A DNA stretch of 60,235 bases, the filler included, from Sphacelaria rigidula (lineage: Eukaryota), in the NCBI GenBank assembly GCA_964200075.2. It is 5 parts of 5 records of this genome, joined end to end, with 100 filler letters (N's around TTAATTAATTAA, not from the genome) between each part and the next. Parts side by side here need not be neighbours in the genome. Positions count along the whole stretch, not along the records: positions 1 to 11,972 come from CAXNAA020004280.1; 4 more parts are not named here. One strand, 5' to 3'. The notes under the pieces were generated by a model. It was not told the origin of the DNA and ran no database searches. It saw only the letters and a program-made list of their open reading frames with translations. The position numbers were made by a program, and so were the translations under genes. Of this stretch, positions 1 to 48,271 are shown piece by piece (the stretch's first letter is position 1; the number at the start of each line of letters is the position of its first letter).

Positions 1-1068
1 CGGCGAGCGGATCGTCACGGACCCGCTGGTGGTCTCGGTGCCCTCGCCGCTCAGGATCGTCACCGACCCGCCCGTGCCGGCCGTGGCCGCAGTGGACGCT
101 CCGGCCGTCACTTGCACCAGACCGCCCTGGCCCGTGTCGCCGGTGCCGACTGTGAAGCTGAGCAAGCCGCCCGAGCCGCCCAGGGCGGCCCCGCTTCCCA
201 CCATGATGTCTCCGCTGTCTCCCACCGTCGTGGACCCAGAGCTGAAAGTCATGGTTCCGCTGTTTCCGGACGTACCGGCGGCGGGAGACGTGATGGTGAC
301 CGTGCCGCTGTTGCCGCTCGTTACCGCTCCGCTTGTCACCGCCACAATCCCGCCTTTCGTGCTGCCACTGCCGGCCACCATCGTCAAGTCGCCGCCCGTG
401 ACCGCCGAGCTCAACCCCGCCATTATACTCACGTCGCCTCCCTCATCCGCCACACCGGCCCCGGCCGCTATGCTCACGGCCCCACCCACCGTCGCTCCCA
501 GTCCCGCCGTCACCGTCACCGACCCCCCGGACGCCGTCGTGCCCTCTCCCGCCACCACGTCCAACGCACCACCCGTAGACCCCACACCCGCCGCCATCGC
601 CACCTCGCCTCCGGTGCCTGTGCTTCCCGTCCCGGCCGCCAGCGACACGCCCCCGCCCGTCACGCCCGTACCGCCCGTCAACGTCAACGCGCCGCCCGTC
701 GCCAGGTCGCCCGTGCCCACCGTCACGCTCACGTCGCCGCCCGATCCGGACGTGGCCGCGCCGCTGCCGATCTGGACCATGCCAGTGTCACCGGAGCTGC
801 TGGTGCCCGAGCTGAACACCAACACGCCGCTCACGCCGTCCGTGCCGGCGTTCGGCGAGCGGATCGTCACGGACCCGCTGGTGGTCTCGGTGCCCTCGCC
901 GCTCAGGATCGTCACCGACCCGCCCGTGCCGGCCGTGGCCGCAGTGGACGCTCCGGCCGTCACCTGCACCAGACCGCCCTGGCCCGTGTCGCCGGTGCCG
1001 ACTGTCAAGCTGAGCAAGCCGCCCGAGCCACCAAGGGCGGCCCCGCTTCCGATCATGATGTCTCCGCT
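1..1068. repeat. 852-bp (284-codon) intragenic tandem duplication, GC-rich
   Basis: Positions 1-~216 recur nearly identically at 853-~1068 (cggcgagcggatcgtcacggacccgctggtggtctcggtgccctcgccgctcagg...). Confidence 0.9.
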
Positions 1069-4000
1069 ATCACCTGCGCTAGCTGTTCCCGAACTGAAGG
1101 TCATGATCCCGCTCGTTCCGCTCAACCCGGCGTTCATGGATCGAATGATGACCTCTCCCGAACTTGTGGCGGTTCCTTCTCCACTGGCAATATAGACAAC
1201 ACCACCTGTTCCTGCGGTACTTTCGCCGGCAAAAAGTTGTAGTCGACCGCCTGATCCGCTATCTCCACTGCCGACGGTGACACTAACCATCCCTCCGCGG
1301 CCACTAGTGCTGTCACCTGACCCAATCAGAACCTCTCCACTGTTACCGAAGCTGCTTGTTCCCGAGCTAAATGACAACTGCCCGCTGATCCCAGAATCTC
1401 CTGCGTTCGCTGACTGAACTATAACAGATCCACTACTCGTTGCGTGACCCTCACCACTAAAGATGATAACATCTCCACCGGTCATCACAGTACTGCTTCC
1501 AGCGTACACCTCTACGACACCACCAGATCCGCTGCTACCCTCGCCTACGATAAGGCTGATCTTGCCGCCACGTCCCCCCGCACTCGACCCCGTCCCAACA
1601 AGGATGGCACCACTGTTTCCGTCGCTACTTGTTCCAGAGCTAAACTCGAGAAGGCCACTAACTCCACTAGCACCGGCGTTTGAAGTTTGAACCAATACAG
1701 ACCCGCTCGATGTGTACTGACTGTAGCCGGTGGTAATAGAAATATCGCCTCCAGTCAGACCAGTGGTGGTTTTTGTGTCCCCGGCGTGGAGAACAACATC
1801 ACCGCCCGCTCCACTCGTACCTGTCCCTACTGTTAGTTCAATATCTCCTCCTCGTCCACCGGTGGCTTTTCCGGTCACGATTGTGACCGTACCGGTGTTG
1901 CCGTTGCTGCTGGTGCCGGTGCTGAACGTCATGATTCCGCTCACGCCGGCCGCGCCTGCGTTTGATGATCTTATGTGCACCGCCCCACTTGTGCTTGCCG
2001 ACGAGTACCCAGACTGGATCAAGATATCGCCACCTGTGACATCTGCGCTTGAGCCTGCTAAAATATTCACTGAACCACCGGCCTCTGATTCAGAAAGCCC
2101 CACTTCGATGTTCACGCTTCCGCTCTGACCTCCGATGGACGTGCCCGTTTGGATAAGGATCTCTCCTGAACTACCGGAGCTTGATGTGCCTGTGGTGAAA
2201 AGAAGCATGCCGCTGCGCCCATTGTGGCCCGCATTAACGGTCCGAACGACAACGTCACCGCTTGTTGTTGCAGAACCAACGCCACTTTCGATTGTTATCT
2301 CTCCACCCGTTGCAGCTGTGCTCTCCCCTGCCCGTACCAGGATCTGTCCGCCTGCGCCACTCCCACCACTGCCGATGATAAGGCTTATCATTCCCCCACG
2401 CCCATCGTTTGCACTGCCAGATTCAATATTGATCGCTCCACTGTTTCCGTCGGTGCTTTCACCAGATCCAAAGCTGAGGCTACCGCTCGCTCCTTCGCGG
2501 CCTGCGTCCGCAGTTTGAACTATGATATTTCCACTCGATGTCTCGACTCCGTGCCCGCTGAAGATGAGGACCGACCCTCCACTTGCAGCGGCGCCCTCAC
2601 CCCCTTCGACGAACACATCACCACCGGCGCCAGCTATGGGGTTCGTGCCCTTACCTGCAGATACGAGCACGGACCCCCCAGTCCGCTCCAGGTCCGACGT
2701 CGCACCTGCAAGCATATGGATGCCGCCACCATCACCGCTTGCCCCGGAACCGACCGCAAGACTTATAGTACCCCCGCGACCTGATGTAGCGTTGGAGGTG
2801 CTTATCAACACCTCTCCGGTATCTCCTCGACTTGAGGTTCCCGTTGTCAGAGATATGAATCCACTGGCTCCGACCAAACCGGAGTTTGCCGTTTGAATCA
2901 GGACTGAACCGCTGCTGCTCCACTCACTGCTCCCGCTCTCCAGTGCAATACTGCCGCCGGTGAACATGTAGGTATCACCTGCATGCAGCGACAACTGTCC
3001 TCCTGGTCCACTGTCACCGATGCCAACGGAAATGTTTATTGCCCCACCGCTTCCGCCCTTTGCTTGACCAGTCACAATGTTAATTGATCCGGAACTTCCC
3101 GACCCAGATTCACCAGAACGCAAAGAAAGGGGTCCGCTCGCACCGGCCGCACCGCCATTGAGAGTTCGAAGCACGACAGCTCCACTGGTGGTGCCGACTC
3201 CTTCCCCACTCAATACCGTTACGGAACCTCCGGTACCACCAACGGCGATGCCCGCTGTCACGGTAACGTTGCCTCCACCGCCTTTTTCTCTGCTGGTTCC
3301 AGCTCCGGCCCTTATTGAGATTGACCCTCCGTCGCTTCGATCAGCGCTTGTGTTTCCGGCCTTCAACGTGAGTGAGCCTCCAAATCCACTTGCGCTGCTC
3401 CCCACGGCCAGCGCAATGCTCCCGCTTGAACCAAGAGTAGCGTCTCCAGTGGCCAGATCAATAGCTCCAGTGTTGCCTGATTGGCTGGAACCTGTGCGAA
3501 TATCTGCATCCCCACTGGATCCATGGAGGTTCTGTGCATCCGCTGTCCATAAAGCCACACGACCACTACTTTTTCCGTTTAGCAAGTCACTGCCGCTCCC
3601 AGAAGAGAGAGTTATACTACCACCATCACCTCCTTGCGAGGAACCTGCTGAGATCTCCACGTTGCCACCGGCCCCAACTCTACCTGTGCTGTCTCCAGCC
3701 CTGAAGACCAGTGCCCCCCCTGTCCCTGACGCATCGCCGCCACCCGCAGGGAATGCATTCCCCGCAGTGATTTCAATAGAACCTGCTGCTTCGTTCGGAT
3801 TTCGCTGCTTGCCAGCTGACAAACTCATGTCTAGGGGGGACATAGTCAAGACCGCAGAGCCTATCTCTTCGTCTCCTACACGAAGGTGAATATTACCAGC
3901 CTCCCCGCCGTGCTCCGATCGGCCGGTCGCGAGAGTGATCGACCCGCTGTCACCGTACGACGCCGTACCAGTCGAAATACTGATAGCACCACTGGCACCC

Positions 4001-7000
4001 ACAGGATCAGCGTTGGCGTAGAACCCCCCAGCTTCCGTCGCGATCGCGATATCGCCGCTTCGCTCCCCAGAGTTCGGCCCAAACCCGAAGTGCTTGTGCT
4101 GCGACTGTAGCGCAGAGATCAAGTCAAGTGTGAGCCCGGCCTTGTCCACTTGCATGAAGTCGTTTATCTTGAAGTTCTTGTCCGGTAGTTCGAACTCCGA
4201 AATAGTTTCCACGTGCTCCGGAAATACCTCCGCAAGCTGCTGTGCGATCACGCCACGAACACGTGGGTTGCCGTCCAGGTTGCGGACTTGGCGCCATTCT
4301 TCCGTGTACGTGTACTCCATCATTTCGACTGCCATGAACCGTTGCAGAATGTCATTACCGTCTACACTGACGACGTCTTGCTTTATACGCTCGTCGGAGG
4401 AGTACTGCACAGTTGTAACCTGCATTGGGATGCTTGAAATCACACGGGGCTCGCCCTCTTCAAACTCCTGGAGACGGAAATCGTATGAGGTCGGGTCATC
4501 CGCCTGGCTACTCGGCGGATGACTAACACTGAAGCCAATGACATTGTTCGTCGTCGTTTCGCCGGCCGGTACCGCAAGATAGATTCCTCCTTCAATGCCA
4601 CTTGTGACTCTTACGTTACTATCCGACGTCATTACGCGTGTTTCCTTCAAGGATGATTGAATCTCGACCGTACCGTTGGTGCTTTCGCCGGTCCCAGGCC
4701 TGACGACCACACGACCGCCGATACCATCAGCAGCTGAACCTGCCGAAACTGTAACGTTCCCACCAGCTTCCTGCTTGTTCAACCCACGACGATCCCGTGC
4801 TGATCCACCTACTGAATTACCGCCAAAAATGTCCACCCCTCCACCCGAACCCGACGTACCTCGCCCAGCCTTGATTGCGACAGCGCCACCAGCACCGCTG
4901 ACACCATGCCTTTCGTCCCCCGCACCGATGCCAGCGGCGATGGTAACCTTACCACCCTTTCCGTGAGATGCATGGCCTGCCTGAAGTCCAATTTCTCCAC
5001 CGGCAGTTCGAAACCCGTCGGTATCACCGGCGGTGATATTGATGTGGCCACCGTCTGCGACTCCCGACGCACCTACGTGTGCATCTATGCTGCCTCCGCT
5101 CCGTGCCTTACTTGTAAGCAGCAAAAGAGATCCCGCTGCACCACCGACGGATTCACCAGTTTCGAGACGGATGCCACCGCTTCGCCCAGTCGTACCGCTG
5201 TTCGCCGTGCGAAGGTGCACATCGCCACTGGACCCGTGCCAACTTTGTCCTGACTGAACAAATACCGAGCCGCCCATGGTACCGTGCATACTCTCAGCGA
5301 CACCAGCAGTGAAGTTAATGTTTCCTCCTTGTCCTGCTGTGCCAGCGCCAACTGCGATACTGACGCTTCCGCCGGAGCCAGAGTATGATCGTCCCGTACT
5401 CAACTTGAGCTCCCCTGACTCCCCGCGGGTAGCATTCCCAGTGGATACTGTAATAGAGCCGCTTGCGCCCGCTCGACCTGCTCCTCGTGTAAGGATGTGC
5501 ATTGCGCCACTTGTTGATTCCTGACTCGTCCCTGTTGCAATCAAAACAGACCCACCCCTGCCTCTGACTGCGCCTCCCCCTCGGGCAACCACCCCTCCAC
5601 CTGAATCCGCCGAGTGCCCACCTCCAGCCTCGCCGCCTTCGATACTGATTCCTCCTCCTCGCCCGCCACCAGTAGAATGTCGATTGGTTCCTGCTCCAGC
5701 AGCTAACCTCAAATAGCCACCACTACCCAGGCGCGCATTCGACTCACCTGCAGTCACGTTTACCGCCCCACCCTGGAGCGCGGATCCTCGGCCTACCGTG
5801 ATGTTCACAGCACCTCCACTACCCCCAGCAGTTGCCGCACCGGTGCCTATAAATAGAGACCCAGAATCACCGGCAGCCGACAATCCCGTGGACAGTGCCA
5901 GGTCGCCACTAACGCCACTTGGTCCAGAGTCTGCCGTGAGGATTGTGACTTGCCCACTGGAAGAGATTTCACCAGCGCCCGATTGAAAGAGTAGGGAGCC
6001 TCCACTGGCAGCCGCAGCTGAGCCTGCGGTAATTTCGATGCTGCCGCCTTGATCGTTTCTCGAGTCCGAACCACTGGCTCGTCCGGCATCCAAAAAGATA
6101 GAGCCACCATCTCCTCCACCACCTTGGCTACTACCTCTCGCTGAACTTAGCCCATCTCCAGCCGCCATCAGAACGTCCCCCCCTCGGCGTCCTCTGGCAG
6201 TAGAGTCGCCGGCTCGCATCATGATAGCGCCCCCGTTGTGATCTGTACCAGCTCCAACAAAAAGCTCAATGTTTCCTCCAGACCCGCCCTGGGCAGCGCC
6301 TGTGGCGATGCCTATATCACCAGAAGAACCATCGGGACTGAGGCCGGTAGAAAACGCGAGTCGCCCGCTATCTCCATGGCGCCCAGCGCTTGCAGTTTTC
6401 AGGAGCAGAGCGCCACTGGTCGACCCATAGGAGTACCCAGTTCGAATAGAAACCTCACCGCCTGTGTTCCCATACGTATCTCCGGCAATGAGGCTGATAT
6501 CACCCCCAACGCCAGAGTCCCCAGTTCCCACGTAAACCTGAAAACTACCTCCACGCCCCTTCCGGGAAGCACCGGTCTGAAGGCTTAGTGTCCCCGAGTC
6601 ACCTCGACTAGAGGTTCCCGTGTAAAGGGAAATGTCGCCACTAGTGCCGGTCTCGCCAGCATTTGCGGTGGATACATGCACGACGCCGCTTGAAGTGTGT
6701 TCTCCATAGCCGCTCCGAAGTTGAAATGTCCCACCTCTGCCTTGGCGGGAAAATCCTCCGGCTATCTCAACGCCTCCGCCTTCGTCGCCCAGTGCACCTC
6801 CTTGTGCAGCTCCCCCAAATATCTGAACACGCCCACCGTTGCCCCCGTTGTAGCGATCCCGGCTGCTACCTTCACCGGCGGCAATGAGCACATCGCCGCC
6901 TTCCGCCTCCGGAGCCGTAGCTTCTCCCGCCGCCAGGATCACATCCCCTCCATCGCCAGTAGAACCAGATCCCACAGCAACAACGACATCGCCGCTAGCC

Positions 7001-10000
7001 CCGTCCTCGGCGTTTCCGGTAATCAACTGGACACTGCCACTGCTGCCCCGACTTGCAGTTCCTGTGGACAGAACTATTTCTCCGCTAACGCCAGCAACGC
7101 CCGCGTTGGGAGTACGGATGACAACCATTCCGCTGGAAGTGTAACTGCTGTATCCGCTCATGACTGTCACATAACCCCCGGAGGCCTTGTCAAATGTGTT
7201 ACCTGCTGTAAGGCCCATATTTCCACCGGAGCCATTATTCCCATCACCCACGGAAACGTCAATGCTTCCACCGCTTCCGACCTCTGCATTTCCAGTTGAA
7301 AGAGAAATCGTGCCGCTTGAACCATAGCTGGTGGTGCCGCTTCGGATAGATATACCTCCGCTGAAGCCTTGAGTGCCAGCATTTCCGGTGTCAATTGCGA
7401 TGGACCCGCTGGTTGTCATTGTACTCAACCCTGATTTTATCAACACATCTCCACCGCTACCGGTGAAAGATCTTCCACCCTCCAATGTCACACGCCCTCC
7501 GTCGTCAGCAGTGCCCTGGCCTTTAGCCACTCCGCCGACGACGCTCACTTCGCCCCCGTTGCCACCGTCAATCTGATGAGGACTCGCGCCTTCTCCACCT
7601 CCTATCAGCACACGGCCGCCCGATCCGCCAACCGAACTCGTTCTCCCAGCGGATACCTCTATGTCGCCTCCATTCCCGTAGTCACCCTCTCCAACAGCCA
7701 GGAGAATGGTGCCACCGGCACCAGCAGTAGCTGCTCCGGTGCGGATAAAGACTGAGCCAGACGTGGTCGCAAGAGACTCGCCGGTGGAAATGGATACGTC
7801 GCCACTTACACCATCTGACCCGGAAGGCGACGTCGAGATCGCCACCGGACCACTTGATCCCGCGCTGCTGGCACCAGATTGGACGTTGATTCCACCCCCC
7901 CGGCCGGCTATGGAATCGCCGCCGACGATCTCCACGGTACCACCACGATCCAGTACTGACGTTCCCTTCGAGCCCCCACCCTGAATCATCACGTGGCCTC
8001 CATCTCCGCCATCGCCCTCATCTGCACTCGAACCCTTGCCAGCTGTGAGAAAGATGTTGCCTCCCCGGGCACCCACGGCCGCTGTGTCACCAGAGTAGAG
8101 ATAGAGATCGCCGCCATCGCCAGAACCGCCGGCTCCAACGATTATTCCCACGGGGCCCCCTGCGCCATCCACGGCATTCCCCGAGCCAAGTAGTACTGTT
8201 CCGGAATCTCCACTGCTGGATGTTCCGGTTGAGACAACGATAGATCCGCTTGCCGCAGCTCTTGCGGCATCTGTAGTTGTAATGCGCACGGCTCCACTTG
8301 TGAATAGATCGCTTGAACCGCTACGGAGTTCGACGTCACCGCCGATGCCTGCCATGCTCTTGCCGCCTACAACAGAAACTGTACCACCGACACCATCGAC
8401 AGCGGATCCCCCAGTAAGAACAACACTACCGCCGTTCCCAATGTCGCCTCCTTCCAGTGTCCCTGCGGCGCTTCCTCCGCTAATAGACACTGCTCCACCG
8501 ACGCCGCCATCTGTGCTAAGTCCATTACCGGCACCAAGCATGACAGCGCCGCCAACACCGTTGACGGCGCTTGTGTTTCCGGCAAAAAACTCGATGTCTC
8601 CGCCGGCGCCGACAATATCGGCTCCACCAATGCTAAACACGATGTCTCCTGCATCGCCATCCGTCGATGATCCGGTCTGGAACTCAATATCGCCGGCACT
8701 ACCGTTAATAGCCTGCCCAGTGCTCAGGACTATTGACCCGGAGACACCGCTTGGGCCTGCATCCACTGTCTGAATGACAACGTCGCCGCTAGAGCTTAAG
8801 GTTCCGGCACCGCTGGAGAGAAGAACGCCCCCCCCGGTTTGATGGCTGCTATCGCCGGCAGTGATGATCACCCACCCTCCCACGCCAGAGTCTCCACTTC
8901 CAACGGACACTCGAACATCTCCACCACCGCCACCCGTTGCATCCCCGGACCGGAGCAGGATATCTCCTGTGCTTCCCGCTGATGATGTTCCTGTCAGCAA
9001 ATTTATCATACCACTGACACCTGATGTGCCGGCATTTGCGGTAGCGACAGTGGCTCCCCCGCTTGAAGAGAGTCTACCTACTCCAGTAGAAAGTAGTAGA
9101 GCACCGCCTGTACCCGCTGCAGCGGGGCCACCCGTCAACATAATCACGCCTCCTATGTTACTTGCGCTATTTCCGAGCGCTTCACCCCCCGAAATTTCTA
9201 CCGTTCCGCCCAATCCACCTGCGTACGAGGTAGCATCCGTTCCTGCACCCGCTGTGATGTGCACATTTCCCCCATGTGCACTGGGTGCTATCGAGCTTCC
9301 CGCCAATAGGTCGATGGAGCCCCCCTCGCCGCTGTCTCCAGACCCCACAGCGAGCGTGATTTGGCCAGCTTTACCGCCATCAGCGGAGCTGGTGATGAGT
9401 GAAATCGAGCCAGAGTCAGCAGCACTAGAAGAGCCTGTCTTCAACACCATGTCACCACTGTAACCCGCCCTCCCGCTGTTGGCAGTTTGCAGATACAGTC
9501 CGCCGCTGGAACCATCTACGGCGTATCCAGAGTTCACCCGAACACTTCCGCCGCGAGAACCGATCTCGGTTGCTTCGCCAGCCGCAAGGGTAATGTCGGA
9601 ACCTTCTCCAACACCTGTTACACCGACGATCAAACTCACCAACCCTGCTTGTCCGTTCGCTGCGTCACCGGTGCCGAGAAGTAGCGTCCCCGTGCTGTTT
9701 GTCAGAGAATCACCCGAGAAAACAGTGACATCACCGCTCGCCGCTTCATCGCTACCAGCGCCTGATCGGATCTGAACATGCCCTGAGGAACGTCCGGCAC
9801 TCGACCCACTCGATAGAAATATCCCGCCTCCAACTCCGCGCTCACTGCCGCCCCCTGTAAGGTTGACACCACCACCTTCGCCCTCCACTGAGGTACCACC
9901 CGTCATGCGTACGCTGCCACCGCCACCTATGTCTCCACCAAAGGCCTCAAGACCCGTACCGGATCCTCCAACGATCGAGACATTTCCACCGCTTCCTCCG

Positions 10001-10232
10001 AGAGGGTTGGTTCCGTCCCCGGCAAACACAAAAATTTCGCCGCCCGCCTCATTTGCGTTATCAGAATTTCCAGATAGCATGCTGGCGTCACCACCCGAGA
10101 GTAGTCGGAATGACGTTTGATTGAGCAAAAGAGAAAAACTTGCTCCGGTCTCTGTCACTCCGGAAGCGGACAACTCACCTCCACCAAACCGGGGATCGGC
10201 TTCTACGATGAGGTTTCCAACGACTCGGTTTT
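1..10232 (-). CDS. Giant exon (~3,410 codons, runs off the contig end): Gly/Ser/Thr/Ala-rich ~15-aa GGxVxIxxG repeats with an internal S74 domain
   Basis: Acceptor AG is at 10233-10234. Codons occupy positions 3k-2..3k on the + numbering. Spot translations near 10200, 4700-3700 and 1200-1 are all open and in the same frame. Confidence 0.88.
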
Positions 10233-11804
10233 CTAGAGCAACAAGTGACGCACGCGACGACGACGACAACCAGTAGTTACATCATTTTGAAGAAAAACTA
10301 CTTGTAGACGGTGGATAGGCGCTTACAAATTGGCGGTACAATGTATTGGATCGCCACGTCGACAGGTGAAGCTCTAGGTACTCGAGAGGAACAAACACAG
10401 TCGAGGACAAAGAGTAAACACAGCTGAAAGAAGAAAAGAAGCCATGGAAAGAGTTCAAACACGCGAAGGACACGACTTCATAACGACACGCACGTAGCTA
10501 AAGATATGCAGCTTGTCGAAGAGTGTAGTTTGATCCTACCTGGACCCGAGAAGCCCATAAGACAACAGACAAGACGCTACCATACGAGGGTGGCGTCACT
10601 AGGGTCCAACCGATAACTTCTGCAATCTCAAACAGTCGACATTTGATAAGGCAGCCGATCCATTGATACCGAAGCTGTGATGTCTCGAAAAGTCTTCTTC
10701 AACAACCGTGGCGCACAACACATTTTATTCGTCACCATAACGCTGACTTTCTCGACCGACACGCTTGCTTCGAGATCATAGATGAGATGGAGTTGAGGTA
10801 TACGAAATCCCAAGAGAATATGAGCTCTCACCTCCGACAAAAGACGTGGGACAGGGAAGGTCGAACACGGTTCCGCGGCAGTCTATGCTGAAAATCTCCG
10901 AGACTGTCATGCACGTGCTCTCGGACGCGCACCACGCACAATCTTCATCTTCTGCGCAGGTTGAACATTCGGGGTACTCACTGCACCGTGGGGGTCCTGA
11001 AAGCCATGCGTGTGAAACAAATCCGATACGCATGTACAAAAAGGAATCCGGATGAGGAGGCGTGAGAAGGTGAGATACGACGCAACGAGATTGTCAGGGA
11101 GACGTTCAGCCGTTTCGTATAAGGAAATTCTGTTTGCGGTAAAGGGGGGCATTGATGGTCACAGCTAGTAGGTGGTGCGTGCTTGCTTGGATGCGGGCAA
11201 CGCGACGGCAGTGGAACTGGTGACTGGGTGGGGGTTTGGTGGGCTGAAAGTGTGTGGGAATCTGTGCCTTATTTTTCCACAAGATGTGTATCCCACCAAC
11301 ATGGATGACCACGAACGGCAATCACCGAATCGGGAGCGGGTGGGGGGGAGAAGCAAGCATCAAATGCACCGGTAACATTGAACGAGCTATGTCCGTTCGT
11401 GCTAATCTGGACTTTTGAAAACTGCACGTACGTGCAGTTGTTGACAACATTTGTCGTCCCCGGATGTCCCTCGAGGACTTGCTACTCTAGATATTTGTTT
11501 ATGTTCACCATGCACACTCCACAACTTAAATACATTCGTCGTAGTAGCAGCGCCTTGGCTGTGGCGTCCGTGATGCTGTTTATGCACTTGTGTAAGTCAT
11601 GCATAACCTCCCGCCATGATTATGTGGTAATAGTGAAAGAATGTTAAAATCGCACCTGGGCACACGTCAGCTGCGGTAATCCAGGTTGGGCATGGCGACC
11701 CATCCGATGGCCCAAGCGAGCTACCGTCAGTGCATTGTAGCGTGGACAAACAGTAACCACACCCTTCTACTCCGATGCAGCTGGTACAGTTCGCCACATC
11801 AGTC
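1..11804 (-). CDS. Giant (>3,500 aa, truncated at both ends) PSI-domain / Gly-rich repeat / Peptidase S74 (ICA) fibre-like protein; exons 11656-11804, 10832-10996, <1-10232
   Basis: Manual splicing: ttgcag|G ACT GAT GTG..TGC CCA G|gtgcga; tttcag|GA CCC CCA..GTC GGA G|gtgaga; ctctag|AA AAC CGA GTC. Phases match and give ..ADVCPGPPRCSEY..PTSFVGENRVVGNLIVEADPRFGGG... All Pro-rich + strand shadow ORFs from 29 to 10120 share one frame, and the track lists no minus ORF in the matching frame, consistent with no stop over 10.2 kb. Translated stretches are repeats such as GTGGSVTILSGEGTETTSGSVTIRSPNAGTDGVSGVLVFSSG. Confidence 0.9.
4090..4398 (-). other. Peptidase S74 / intramolecular chaperone autoprocessing (ICA) domain within the giant protein
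   Basis: Translation: SDERIKQDVVSVDGNDILQRFMAVEMMEYTYTEEWRQVRNLDGNPRVRGVIAQQLAEVFPEHVETISEFELPDKNFKINDFMQVDKAGLTLDLISALQSQH. It has the S-D-x-R-x-K dyad motif (Ser codon 4396-4398, Lys codon 4381-4383), a Y-x-Y motif, GVIAQ..FPE.V and a C-terminal amphipathic helix. Confidence 0.9.
10832..10996 (-). CDS. Exon encoding PSI (plexin-repeat) domain 2 of the giant protein
   Basis: GPPRCSEYPECSTCAEDEDCAWCASESTCMTVSEIFSIDCRGTVFDLPCP has the C..CxxC..CxWC..C PSI pattern. The exon is 165 bp, symmetrical phase 1-1, with canonical splice sites. Confidence 0.85.
11656..11804 (-). CDS. Exon encoding PSI (plexin-repeat) domain 1 of the giant protein
   Basis: TDVANCTSCIGVEGCGYCLSTLQCTDGSSLGPSDGSPCPTWITAADVCP has the CxxC..CGYC..C..GP..C..W..CP pattern and canonical AG/GT boundaries. 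Confidence 0.85.
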
Positions 11805-11897
11805 CTGCAACGGCAGCGAAGAAAGCGTCATCGCGGACGGCAGGTATTAAGTCCGAGGTTTGCTCCAAACGCTAGTTATCTCAAGCAACTGGATTCT

Positions 11898-11972
11898 GAG
11901 CAATGCTACGGTAGGGGTGCACTTTTTCCGCGAAATTTTGTCTGGTTCAGAGGCTCCTAACGATTCTAGACG
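11898..11972. mobile_element. Truncated copy of the GAG-terminus MITE family, in an intron of the giant gene
   Basis: Starts GAGCAATGCTACGGTAGGGGTGCAC, the same TIR as the full copies; cut by the contig end. Confidence 0.8.
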
Positions 11973-12072
11973 NNNNNNNNNNNNNNNNNNNNNNNNNNNN
12001 NNNNNNNNNNNNNNNNTTAATTAATTAANNNNNNNNNNNNNNNNNNNNNNNNNNNNNNNNNNNNNNNNNNNN
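11973..12072. other. Artificial contig spacer (N44-TTAATTAATTAA-N44)
   Basis: 100-nt spacer carrying a six-frame-stop linker; the same design occurs at four places. Confidence 0.97.
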
Positions 12073-48171: not shown

Positions 48172-48271
48172 NNNNNNNNNNNNNNNNNNNNNNNNNNNNN
48201 NNNNNNNNNNNNNNNTTAATTAATTAANNNNNNNNNNNNNNNNNNNNNNNNNNNNNNNNNNNNNNNNNNNN
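48172..48271. other. Artificial contig spacer
   Basis: 100-nt N/TTAATTAATTAA/N linker. Confidence 0.97.

What the first reader, a model, noticed from the sequence alone, without database searches (positions are those of the whole stretch)
1..11804. Giant eukaryotic phage-fibre-like protein: PSI head, thousands of residues of Gly-rich beta repeats and a self-cleaving S74 chaperone
Seen: a spliced minus-strand gene, missed by the ORF track, encoding over 3,500 aa. Its order is PSI-PSI, linker, ~1,850 aa of ~15-aa GGxVxIxxG repeats, a short unique spacer, an S74/ICA domain, then over 1,350 aa more repeats. N-glycosylation sequons occur (NCT, NQT, NVS, NGT). Established: Peptidase S74 domains act as trimerisation chaperones that fold triple-beta-helical phage tail spikes/fibres and then cut themselves off; PSI domains are disulfide-bonded extracellular modules. 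Inference: this is a secreted or surface homotrimeric beta-helical filament with a PSI tip, matured by autoproteolysis (possible adhesin, wall/mucilage fibre or flagellar-hair filament). From memory, similar Gly-rich stramenopile proteins carry vague labels such as 'polymorphic outer membrane protein'. I know of no functional description of this architecture, but cannot verify that here.
Basis: partly seen in the sequence, partly recalled or inferred. Interest (0 to 1): 0.88.

Follow-up and report, generated by a model that had tools for sequence, protein, structure and literature searches.

The report
Giant algal self-cleaving fibre protein
A genome piece that looks like a brown alga's holds part of a giant, probably secreted protein: two small cysteine-rich modules, then hundreds of 15-residue glycine-rich repeats, interrupted by a phage-type domain that normally joins three chains and then cuts itself.

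Summary
A minus-strand frame of 3,427 codons (1-10281) has no stop. With two upstream spliced exons it gives at least 3,515 residues, and the gene is cut at both ends by the limits of an 11.97-kb piece of the window. Pfam finds Peptidase_S74 at residues 1962-2024 with an intact Ser-Asp-x3-Lys site. It also finds PSI in the second upstream exon. Both repeat blocks have a strong 15-residue period.

The splice model and the order PSI-PSI-linker-repeats-S74-repeats recur in Ectocarpus gene models and in four metagenome loci. In two of those loci a signal-peptide-like first exon precedes the PSI modules. Named relatives are brown algae, Tribonema and Phytophthora.

Relatives carry one to three internal S74 modules, some without the serine, and their genes tile loci of more than 20 kb. 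Only the S74 part resembles phage fibres. The repeats match no Pfam, PHROG, PDB or phage sequence.

Best reading (0.55): a secreted trimeric fibre precursor, registered and cut at internal chaperone modules. The trimer and the fold of the repeats are untested, because the trimer job never ran and the monomer model of the repeats was poor. My searches found no paper on this family. I call it a new variant of a known kind.

The parts
11656..11804 (-). Exon A: first PSI-like cysteine module (TDVANCTSCIGVEGCGYCLSTLQC...CPTWI...CP). It starts at an acceptor (ttgcag|G) with no start codon, so at least one more 5' exon lies beyond the piece end at 11972.
   Evidence: Sequence read. No Pfam hit at E<=10. 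82% identity over 44 aa to Ectocarpus sp. 8 P0166. 50% identity, E=4e-11, to the first Cys module of L014.
10997..11655 (-). Intron 1 (GT...AG), 659 nt, GC 0.495
   Evidence: The A-B join is seen in gene model P0166.
10832..10996 (-). Exon B: PSI (plexin repeat) domain
   Evidence: Pfam PF01437 at E=3e-6, 27.9 bits against a cut-off of 23.1. 85-91% identity to ORFs from public assemblies and 88% to Ectocarpus sp. 8. 44% identity, E=4e-15, to L014.
10233..10831 (-). Intron 2 (GT...AG), 599 nt, GC 0.467
   Evidence: The B-C join is seen in P0169.
10051..10232 (-). Start of the giant exon: conserved linker NRVVGNLIVEADPRFGGGEL... between the PSI head and the repeats
   Evidence: Translation. 40% identity, E=1e-11, to P0169. 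63% identity over 24 aa, E=2e-7, to L037.
4678..10050 (-). N-terminal repeat block, about 1,790 residues (P0001 78-1868) of 15-residue units with consensus G-x-[GS]-G-x-[VIL]-x-[ILV]-x-[ST]-G-x-[SGA]-x-x
   Evidence: lag-15 z=12.2. No Pfam, PHROG or PDB match.
4399..4677 (-). Unique neck before the cleavage site (P0001 1869-1961), conserved across the family (...IGFSVS...YDFRLQ...PMQVTTVQYS)
   Evidence: AlphaFold2 places short strands here at pLDDT 56-82.
4078..4398 (-). ICA / Peptidase_S74 domain (P0001 1962-2068). The predicted nucleophile is Ser1962 (codon 4396-4398) and the base is Lys1967 (codon 4381-4383). The predicted cut lies between Ser1961 and Ser1962.
   Evidence: Pfam E=3.1e-11. 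YSSDERIK verified. MYRF ICA 7dc3 matches at E=3.1e-6 with the single sequence and 1.3e-16 with the family profile. Nine PHROG tail-fibre families match, best 1.8e-16. In the AlphaFold2 monomer the blocks of module residues 101-200 (about P0001 1960-2059) have pLDDT 89-95.
1..4065 (-). C-terminal repeat block, at least 1,355 residues (P0001 2073-3427). It uses the same 15-residue unit, organised in 91-residue super-repeats of six units, and runs off the window.
   Evidence: lag-15 z=15.5.
1..1132 (-). Segmental duplication inside the C block: 1-280 and 853-1132 are 90% identical (spacing 852 nt = 284 codons)
   Evidence: Tandem Repeats Finder reports nothing at score>=100, so the other repeats are old at the DNA level.

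Best explanation
This is part of a cellular stramenopile gene, most likely from a brown alga, for a giant secreted fibre precursor. The steps below are inferred unless marked as shown.

1. The chain enters the secretory pathway through a signal peptide on a missing 5' exon.
2. Three chains come into register at the internal ICA (Peptidase_S74) module.
3. As in phage fibres and in MYRF, the module helps the roughly 1,900 residues of glycine-rich beta repeats on its N-terminal side to trimerise and fold.
4. Once trimeric, the Ser1962/Lys1967 dyad cuts the chain before Ser1962.
5. The cut frees a long fibre tipped by two disulfide-bonded PSI modules from a second piece, which starts with the ICA trimer and continues as at least 1,355 more repeat residues.
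6. Further ICA modules probably follow beyond the window, as they do in relatives. The gene would then be a string of fibre segments, each with its own C-terminal registration module.
7. Modules that have lost the serine would stay as uncut trimer clamps.

Shown here: the architecture, the intact catalytic motif, the conservation and the cellular context. Inferred: secretion, trimerisation, cleavage, the fold of the repeats and the site of action.
For: GENE AND DOMAINS.
- The frame is open for 3,427 codons, with chance about 1e-59.
- Peptidase_S74 scores above Pfam's cut-off and carries S-D-x3-K. Passages of PMC3742443 name S578, D579 and K583 as conserved catalytic residues. They state that cleavage follows trimerisation, that both MYRF fragments stay oligomeric, and that the ICA chaperones the fold on its N-terminal side.
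- The AlphaFold2 monomer of the module is confident in the ICA core: blocks of module residues 101-200 have pLDDT 89-95 and the overall mean is 76.6.

SECRETION.
- PSI is present above the Pfam cut-off.
- Relatives L014 and L016 have a first exon, MSRKFFILLSLLHF.. / MRRTFFFLLSLLHF.., spliced in frame into the PSI exon (read by eye).

CONSERVATION.
- The order PSI-PSI-linker-repeats-S74 recurs in 4 of 45 fetched loci: L005, L014, L016 and L037. It also recurs in Ectocarpus models.
- The family has 281 cluster representatives at E<=1e-3.
- Repeats follow the S74 domain in the family consensus and in most rows long enough to show it.
- Relatives have 2-3 modules per protein. These modules group by position in a tree of 67 modules.
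- The serine is kept in 59 of 67 modules and was lost at least 5 times, while the lysine is kept by the way the motif was defined.
- The 15-residue period is the top lag in 9 of 12 relatives.

CELLULAR ORIGIN.
- The gene has introns, and exon GC of 0.58-0.59 stands against intron GC of 0.47-0.50.
- Neighbouring genes in relatives are an aminotransferase and a cyclic-nucleotide phosphodiesterase.
Against: - No signal peptide, start codon, anchor or true C-terminus is in the window. No true C-terminus was seen in any relative either, because every frame end I examined is followed by more Gly-rich exons.
- Trimerisation and cleavage were not tested by any tool here.
- The AlphaFold2 monomer of a repeat block was poor, with mean pLDDT 50.4 and no secondary structure, from only 7 paralogous rows. 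The repeats could therefore be flexible rather than a rigid fibre.
- Each 15-residue unit has only one phi-x-phi pair, which does not fix a fold.
- Sequons are not enriched.
- There is no expression evidence for this locus.
- The signal-peptide reading in L014 and L016 is by eye, without a predictor.
Confidence: 0.55

Rival explanations
1. A flexible or monomeric glycine/serine-rich matrix polyprotein. The repeats would be a loose or single-chain beta-solenoid material such as mucilage, wall or an adhesive. The S74 modules would serve mainly as built-in proteases or local trimer knots that cut the precursor into pieces, not as chaperones of a rigid triple fibre.
For: - The AlphaFold2 monomer of the repeats gave no confident fold.
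- The composition is 24% Gly and 15% Ser.
- The repeats match no known fibre family.
- Eight of 67 modules lack the serine, so cleavage is not always needed.
Against: - The strict G / phi-x-phi / G register is kept over thousands of residues and across distant relatives. That points to ordered beta structure.
- In every studied case the ICA acts on a trimer (passages of PMC3742443).
- The poor monomer model came from a 7-row alignment of paralogous segments, and an obligate trimer would also give such a result.
Confidence: 0.2
2. A MYRF-like tethered-release device. The part after the ICA would be anchored in a membrane, in the wall or on a flagellum, and self-cleavage would release the PSI-tipped N-terminal trimer from that anchor.
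For: - The ICA is internal, as in MYRF.
- The closest solved structure by sequence is the MYRF ICA, 7dc3, at E=1.3e-16 with the family profile. Phage structures score 0.019-0.055.
Against: - No transmembrane segment or anchor was seen. The window and all relatives end in more repeats.
- No NDT80 or other MYRF domain is present in the window or in 149 relatives.
- MYRF relatives do not rank above a bacterial-type protein among the hits. The PDB ranking may therefore only reflect what has been solved.
Confidence: 0.12
3. A viral fibre gene lodged in the genome, from an integrated phaeovirus, another giant virus or a polinton-like virus, rather than a host gene.
For: - S74 domains are common at the C-termini of fibre proteins of polinton-like viruses, and one occurs in a Heterosigma virus protein (passages of PMC12220804 and PMC13659346).
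- The 10-kb exon has higher GC than its surroundings.
Against: - The gene has spliced PSI exons.
- The extra GC lies in codon positions 1 and 2, as expected for Gly codons; GC3 is 0.54.
- Neighbours in relatives are cellular genes.
- IMG/VR gave 0 loci with the single module, 3 loci at 29-31% identity with the profile, and none for the repeats.
- The PLV paper says ochrophyte PLVs lack S74.
Confidence: 0.05
4. Non-functional repeat DNA or a decaying gene whose long open frame is a by-product of composition.
For: There is no expression data. The gene is incomplete in the window. Long antisense frames also exist.
Against: - The chance of the open frame is about 1e-59.
- Domains score above Pfam cut-offs.
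- Brown-algal proteins are 75-91% identical, and the architecture is conserved across GC 0.44-0.68.
Confidence: 0.03

Closest known systems
C-terminal intramolecular chaperone (ICA / Peptidase_S74) of phage tailspikes and tail fibres, e.g. K1F endosialidase
   Same: The domain family is the same: Pfam E=3.1e-11 and nine PHROG tail-fibre families, best 1.8e-16. The Ser-Asp-x3-Lys site is the same. The expected role is also the same: registering three chains and folding what lies on the N-terminal side.
   Different: - In phages the domain ends the protein. All nine PHROG matches lie at the profiles' C-terminal ends, and the domain is discarded.
- Here it is internal, followed by at least 1,355 residues, and repeated up to three times in relatives.
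- The host here is a cellular eukaryote.
- The shaft repeats match no phage sequence.
MYRF (myelin regulatory factor) ICA domain, PDB 7dc3
   Same: It is an internal ICA in a eukaryotic protein, and cleavage yields two oligomeric fragments (passages of PMC3742443). It is the best solved-structure match by sequence.
   Different: This gene has no NDT80 DNA-binding domain, no MYRF C-terminal domains and no transmembrane segment that I saw. It is probably extracellular, and its flanks are giant repeat blocks.
Fibre proteins of polinton-like viruses and algal giant viruses with a terminal S74 domain
   Same: They are large modular proteins, up to 3.9 k residues, found in protist-associated elements (passage of PMC12220804). 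A Heterosigma virus protein combines S74 with a FhaB-like domain (passage of PMC13659346).
   Different: In those proteins S74 is single and C-terminal, joined to laminin-G, collagen or adenovirus-fibre domains. This gene is spliced, sits among cellular genes in relatives, has a PSI head, and has internal modules.
Giant bacterial surface fibres ending in an S74 chaperone
   Same: It is a cellular, non-viral protein of several thousand residues that combines repeats with an S74 domain.
   Different: That protein is bacterial and membrane-anchored, with one terminal chaperone. I did not check that note.

Membership tests
Peptidase_S74 / ICA domain | Profile match above the curated cut-off | tested here: met
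   PF13884 at 43.8 bits against a cut-off of 22, E=3.1e-11, covering profile positions 1-57 of 58.
Peptidase_S74 / ICA domain | Catalytic Ser, the adjacent Asp, and Lys five residues after the Ser (MYRF S578, D579, K583; passages of PMC3742443) | tested here: met
   S1962, D1963 and K1967 lie in YSSDERIK. They align to the same positions of 7dc3.
Peptidase_S74 / ICA domain | Conserved Gly of the G-V-I-A-Q stretch (MYRF G626 in PMC3742443; placing it in this stretch is my inference) | tested here: met
   The window's RGVIAQ aligns to TGVIAQ of 7dc3. R150, G151 and Q155 are invariant in the 29-row family alignment.
Peptidase_S74 / ICA domain | Homotrimerisation followed by self-cleavage | not testable with these tools
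   Complex prediction never accepted the three-copy job, and cleavage needs a bench test.
Phage-type tail fibre or tailspike (whole protein) | The chaperone is the C-terminal end of the protein, and the shaft is related to phage shafts | tested here: not met
   At least 1,355 residues follow the ICA. The repeats give 0 PHROG hits and 0 of 50,697 phage records.
PSI (plexin repeat) domain | Profile match above the curated cut-off | tested here: met
   Exon B scores 27.9 bits against a cut-off of 23.1.
PSI (plexin repeat) domain | The second copy (exon A) is also a PSI | tested here: inconclusive
   There is no Pfam hit at E<=10. The Cys spacing is similar, and BLASTP gives E=7e-4 to the second PSI of P0166.
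MYRF family | NDT80/PhoG DNA-binding domain before the ICA, and a transmembrane segment after it | tested here: not met
   Pfam finds only S74 in the 3,427 residues, and finds no NDT80 in 149 relatives.
   Six repeat segments gave no relevant Pfam family at E<=10. The only row was a chance GAF_3 hit at E=0.28.
Trimeric beta-helical or beta-spiral fibre shaft | The repeats fold as an interwoven homotrimer | tested here: inconclusive
   Only a monomer model could be made, with mean pLDDT 50.4 and no secondary structure.
Integrated viral gene | Intronless gene among viral genes, with close viral relatives | tested here: not met
   The gene has two introns. Neighbours in relatives are cellular. 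IMG/VR matches reach at most 31% identity, and only in the ICA.

The most novel reading that the evidence does not exclude
Stramenopiles make a class of giant 'poly-fibre' precursors, over 6,000 residues long, that has not been studied. Several glycine-rich shafts of a new fold are strung together. Each is registered by its own internal ICA module, and the string is then cut, or left clamped where the serine is lost, into PSI-tipped trimeric filaments. These filaments would form a major extracellular structure such as the fine filaments of flagellar hairs, spore adhesive or wall fibres. In this reading the ICA is an old cellular tool in eukaryotes rather than a one-off phage gift to MYRF.
Probability: 0.25. 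Interest if true: 0.85.

Novelty: new variant of a known kind. Interest (0 to 1): 0.62.

Why it matters
ICA domains have been studied in two settings: as throw-away C-terminal chaperones of phage fibres, and as the release switch of the animal transcription factor MYRF. This gene shows a third use. The modules are internal, often multiple and sometimes uncleavable, and they sit inside giant repeat proteins of brown algae, a xanthophyte, an oomycete and many unnamed marine organisms.

If the repeats are trimeric shafts, the gene suggests how a cell could fold and register fibres thousands of residues long, segment by segment. It would also point to an unidentified extracellular filament in an ecologically important group. 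The repeat unit matches no described family, so its fold would be new information. The family also bears on where the eukaryotic ICA came from.

Tried and rejected
STRUCTURE.
- The three-copy job on the S74 module (complex prediction) was never accepted. No verdict on binding exists.

GENOME AND CONTEXT.
- No whole genome is held for the window.
- The records behind the metagenome loci cannot be searched. I therefore could not extend either end of the gene or reach the C-terminus of a relative.
The single repeat segment found nothing.

REJECTED IDEAS.
- Enrichment of N-glycosylation sites: 18 observed against 23.9 expected.
- Recent tandem amplification: TRF found nothing, and there is only one 280-nt duplicate.
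- A special kinship with MYRF: no MYRF-type protein among the 149 best relatives.
- Other copies in the window: none outside 1-10300.
- TM-like stretches in six short homologues looked like read-through tails, not anchors.

LITERATURE. Ten searches were run.
- S74, PF13884 or 'chaperone of endosialidase' occur in 67 papers, of which 40 were listed. Those listed concern phages, contractile injection systems, MYRF, giant viruses and polinton-like viruses.
- No paper pairs 'endosialidase' with Ectocarpus or brown-algal genes.
- The only paper pairing it with Phytophthora is the PLV paper.
- PITG_01491 occurs in no paper.
- Searches were badly framed, because min_terms=2 let unrelated papers dominate.
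- The Phaeoexplorer preprint (passages only) mentions mastigoneme proteins and a 'flagellar titin' but no S74.
Full report
WHAT THE WINDOW IS. The 60,235-base window is five pieces of about 11.97 kb joined by N...TTAATTAATTAA...N linkers, with N runs at 11973-12072, 24040-24139, 36107-36206 and 48172-48271. Only 1-11972 is therefore real context for the finding. No whole genome is held. The other four pieces contain no further copy of the gene, no Rfam match and no tRNA.

THE OBSERVATION. The minus strand is open from 10281 to 1, which is 3,427 codons without a stop, and the frame runs off the window. From its base composition the chance of this is about 1e-59. Pfam finds Peptidase_S74 at residues 1962-2024 (E=3.1e-11, 43.8 bits, cut-off 22) and nothing else in the frame. 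NCBIfam finds nothing.

Two short minus-strand exons lie upstream. Exon B (10996-10832) is a PSI domain above Pfam's cut-off. Exon A (11804-11656) has the same cysteine pattern but no Pfam hit even at E<=10.

I read the splice sites by eye. Exon A begins at ttgcag|G. Intron 1 is 11655-10997 and intron 2 is 10831-10233, both GT...AG and both in frame. Together the exons give 3,515 codons. There is no start codon, so at least one 5' exon lies beyond 11972. Exon GC is 0.58-0.59 against 0.47-0.50 in the introns.

THE REPEATS. The protein is 24% Gly and 15% Ser, and the spliced giant exon contains no cysteine. Identity at lag 15 stands 12.2 standard deviations above shuffles in the N block and 15.5 in the C block. 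There are 212 G-x-phi-x-phi anchors, and 111 of 211 spacings are exactly 15. The unit is G-x-[GS]-G-x-[VIL]-x-[ILV]-x-[ST]-G-x-[SGA]-x-x. In the C block six units form a 91-residue super-repeat.

At the DNA level the repeats are old. TRF reports nothing, and there is only one duplicate pair, 1-280 and 853-1132 at 90% identity. Sequons are present but fewer than chance predicts, 18 against 23.9 +/- 4.2, so they say nothing about glycosylation.

INDEPENDENT SUPPORT FOR THE GENE MODEL. A search with exon B returned eight proteins.
- P0166, a partial protein of Ectocarpus sp. 8, joins an exon-A-like module (82% identical) directly to an exon-B-like PSI.
- P0169 joins the PSI directly to NKVVGNMVVQPDPAFGGGEF, the counterpart of the first residues of the giant exon.
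- I fetched 45 loci and scanned them all. Four of them, L005, L014, L016 and L037, carry two PSI-type modules just upstream of the repeats.
- In L014 and L016 the modules and the repeats share one continuous frame. In L005 the frame holding both modules runs on through the linker into the first Gly-rich units, and the bulk of the repeats follows in later frames.
- Exons A and B align in order to L014 at E=4e-11 and 4e-15.
- The linker aligns to L037 at E=2e-7.

WHO HAS IT. The named relatives are stramenopiles.
- In the S74 region, partial proteins of Hapterophycus canaliculatus, Ectocarpus sp. 12 and Scytosiphon promiscuus are 75-78% identical, and Tribonema minus is 45% identical.
- P0013 is Phytophthora infestans PITG_01491, labelled 'Peptidase S74 domain-containing protein'.
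- The source of the window is therefore most likely a brown alga close to the Ectocarpales.
- The every-protein search found 281 cluster representatives at E<=1e-3, with 133 at 1e-10 and 46 at 1e-30.
- Of 149 members scanned with Pfam, 116 carry S74 and no other domain recurs.
- One member is labelled as an archaeal MAG protein. I suspect a binning error.

THE FAMILY'S ANATOMY. Repeats follow the S74 domain in the family consensus and in most rows long enough to show it, so an internal chaperone is the rule here.
- Relatives have several modules. P0002 has three (SSD, TSD, AAD), P0004 has three (SSD, TAD, PDD) and P0005 has two (SSD, AAD).
- I analysed 29 of the 42 metagenome loci. They include frames of 2,804 residues with two modules (L022, L026, L027, L028), 5,059 residues open at both ends with two modules (L029), and more than 3,000 residues before the first module (L011, L037).
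- In a tree of 67 distinct modules, the modules of P0002, P0004, P0005 and P0007 group by position. The serine is present in 59 and was lost at least five times. I left row L045 out of that tree as a very long branch.
- In L022, L021 and L025, and in the further loci, Gly-rich plus-strand frames tile the whole locus, up to 20.8 kb. Every frame end I examined is followed by more Gly-rich exons.
- These genes therefore exceed 6,000 codons, and no true C-terminus has been seen.
- The roughly 15-residue period is the top hydrophobic lag in 9 of 12 relatives.

SECRETION. PSI modules are known as disulfide-bonded extracellular modules; this rests on established knowledge and was not tested here. In L014 and L016 an ATG-initiated first exon (MSRKFFILLSLLHFGEDLLVFSADQ... 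and MRRTFFFLLSLLHFSEDLLVFSADQ...) ends at a GTAAGT donor and splices in frame into the PSI exon. It looks like a signal peptide, but I judged that by eye because no predictor was available.

CELLULAR OR VIRAL. The evidence points to a cellular gene.
- The gene is spliced.
- Neighbours in relatives are an aminotransferase (L005) and a cyclic-nucleotide phosphodiesterase (L016).
- IMG/VR gave no locus for the single module, three loci at 29-31% identity for the profile and none for the repeats.
- In L001 the match lies near the C-terminal end of its frame, as in ordinary viral fibres.
- The polinton-like-virus paper states that S74 fibre genes are widespread in PLVs except in those of ochrophytes, parabasalids and amoebozoans (passage).

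WHAT IS PHAGE-LIKE AND WHAT IS NOT. The S74 part matches nine PHROG tail-fibre families, always at the profiles' C-terminal ends, best 1.8e-16. It also matches 12 of 50,697 phage records at 26-31% identity, only over module residues 95-216. The repeats match no PHROG, no phage record, no Pfam family even at E<=10 and no solved structure.

Among solved structures the family profile hits the MYRF ICA 7dc3 at 1.3e-16 and phage ICA structures only at 0.019-0.055. The window's own module hits 7dc3 at 3.1e-6, with the catalytic positions aligned. I do not read this as kinship with MYRF. No MYRF-type protein is among the 149 best relatives, while a bacterial-type protein with a terminal S74 appears at 2e-8.

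STRUCTURE.
- The AlphaFold2 monomer of the module (29-row alignment) has mean pLDDT 76.6. The ten-residue blocks from module residue 101 to 200 (about P0001 1960-2059) score 89-95. The model shows helices, a hairpin and a long C-terminal helix, with short strands in the neck.
- The monomer of a 367-residue repeat block (7 paralogous rows) is poor, with mean pLDDT 50.4 and no secondary structure. This neither shows disorder nor excludes a trimer.

HOW IT MOST LIKELY WORKS. Passages of Li, Park and Marcotte 2013 (PMC3742443) make four points.
- The Ser/Lys dyad is positioned only after folding and trimerisation.
- The ICA chaperones the fold that lies on its N-terminal side.
- In MYRF both fragments remain oligomers.
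- S578, D579 and K583 are conserved.

The window has S1962, D1963 and K1967. My reading is a secreted precursor whose chains are registered at the ICA. The upstream ~1,900-residue shaft then trimerises, and the chain is cut before Ser1962. This yields a PSI-tipped fibre and an ICA-headed downstream segment. More modules probably follow beyond the window, and serine-less modules in relatives act as uncut clamps. Where the product sits (wall, adhesive or flagellar hairs) is unknown. The Phaeoexplorer preprint (passages only) mentions mastigoneme proteins and a 'flagellar titin'. I could not link either to this gene, and its supplements were closed.

NOVELTY. The ten literature searches are listed under Tried and rejected. 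They found S74 domains discussed for phages, injection systems, MYRF, giant viruses and polinton-like viruses, and nothing on this cellular stramenopile family. Database entries exist but carry only automatic labels. I rate it a new variant of a known kind: the chaperone is known, while its internal, repeated use in giant PSI-tipped repeat proteins of eukaryotes, and the repeat unit itself, are undescribed.

Noticed in passing
window 11973-12072, 24040-24139, 36107-36206, 48172-48271; also 34658-34667: The window is five ~11.97-kb pieces joined by N runs around TTAATTAATTAA, so neighbouring pieces need not be adjacent in the genome. A separate 10-N gap lies inside the third piece.
   Followed up: yes
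window 30035-30826 (-): A 263-residue open frame has a weak chromodomain match (E=0.0032, below Pfam's cut-off). It may be the tail of a chromovirus-type retrotransposon integrase.
   Followed up: partly
window 16564-17469 (+): A 301-residue Ala/Ser-rich open frame ends in a run of Cys and Arg codons. It has no Pfam match and is probably low-complexity DNA rather than a gene.
   Followed up: partly
window 1-1242 (+) and other plus-strand frames opposite the giant exon: Long antisense open frames (up to 413 codons) lie opposite the Gly-rich frame. The same proline-rich antisense frames appear opposite the relatives' genes. They look like a by-product of GGN-rich coding.
   Followed up: partly
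P0002, P0004, P0005, P0007 (homologues): In multi-module relatives the first module keeps the serine, while later ones often carry Ala or Asp at that position. Modules group by position in the tree, so the array is older than the split of these proteins.
   Followed up: yes
L014 754-911; L016 2932-3089: A signal-peptide-like first exon is spliced in frame (GTAAGT...AG) into the PSI exon of two related metagenome loci. This is the only N-terminus of the family seen here.
   Followed up: partly
P0018 (homologue): A family member is deposited as 'MAG: tail fiber domain-containing protein [archaeon]' on a 3-kb contig. It is likely a eukaryotic contig binned into an archaeal MAG.
   Followed up: no
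L022, L021, L025 (whole loci, up to 20.8 kb): Gly-rich exons of one gene tile the whole fetched locus, with short gaps that look like introns. The implied proteins exceed 6,000 residues.
   Followed up: partly
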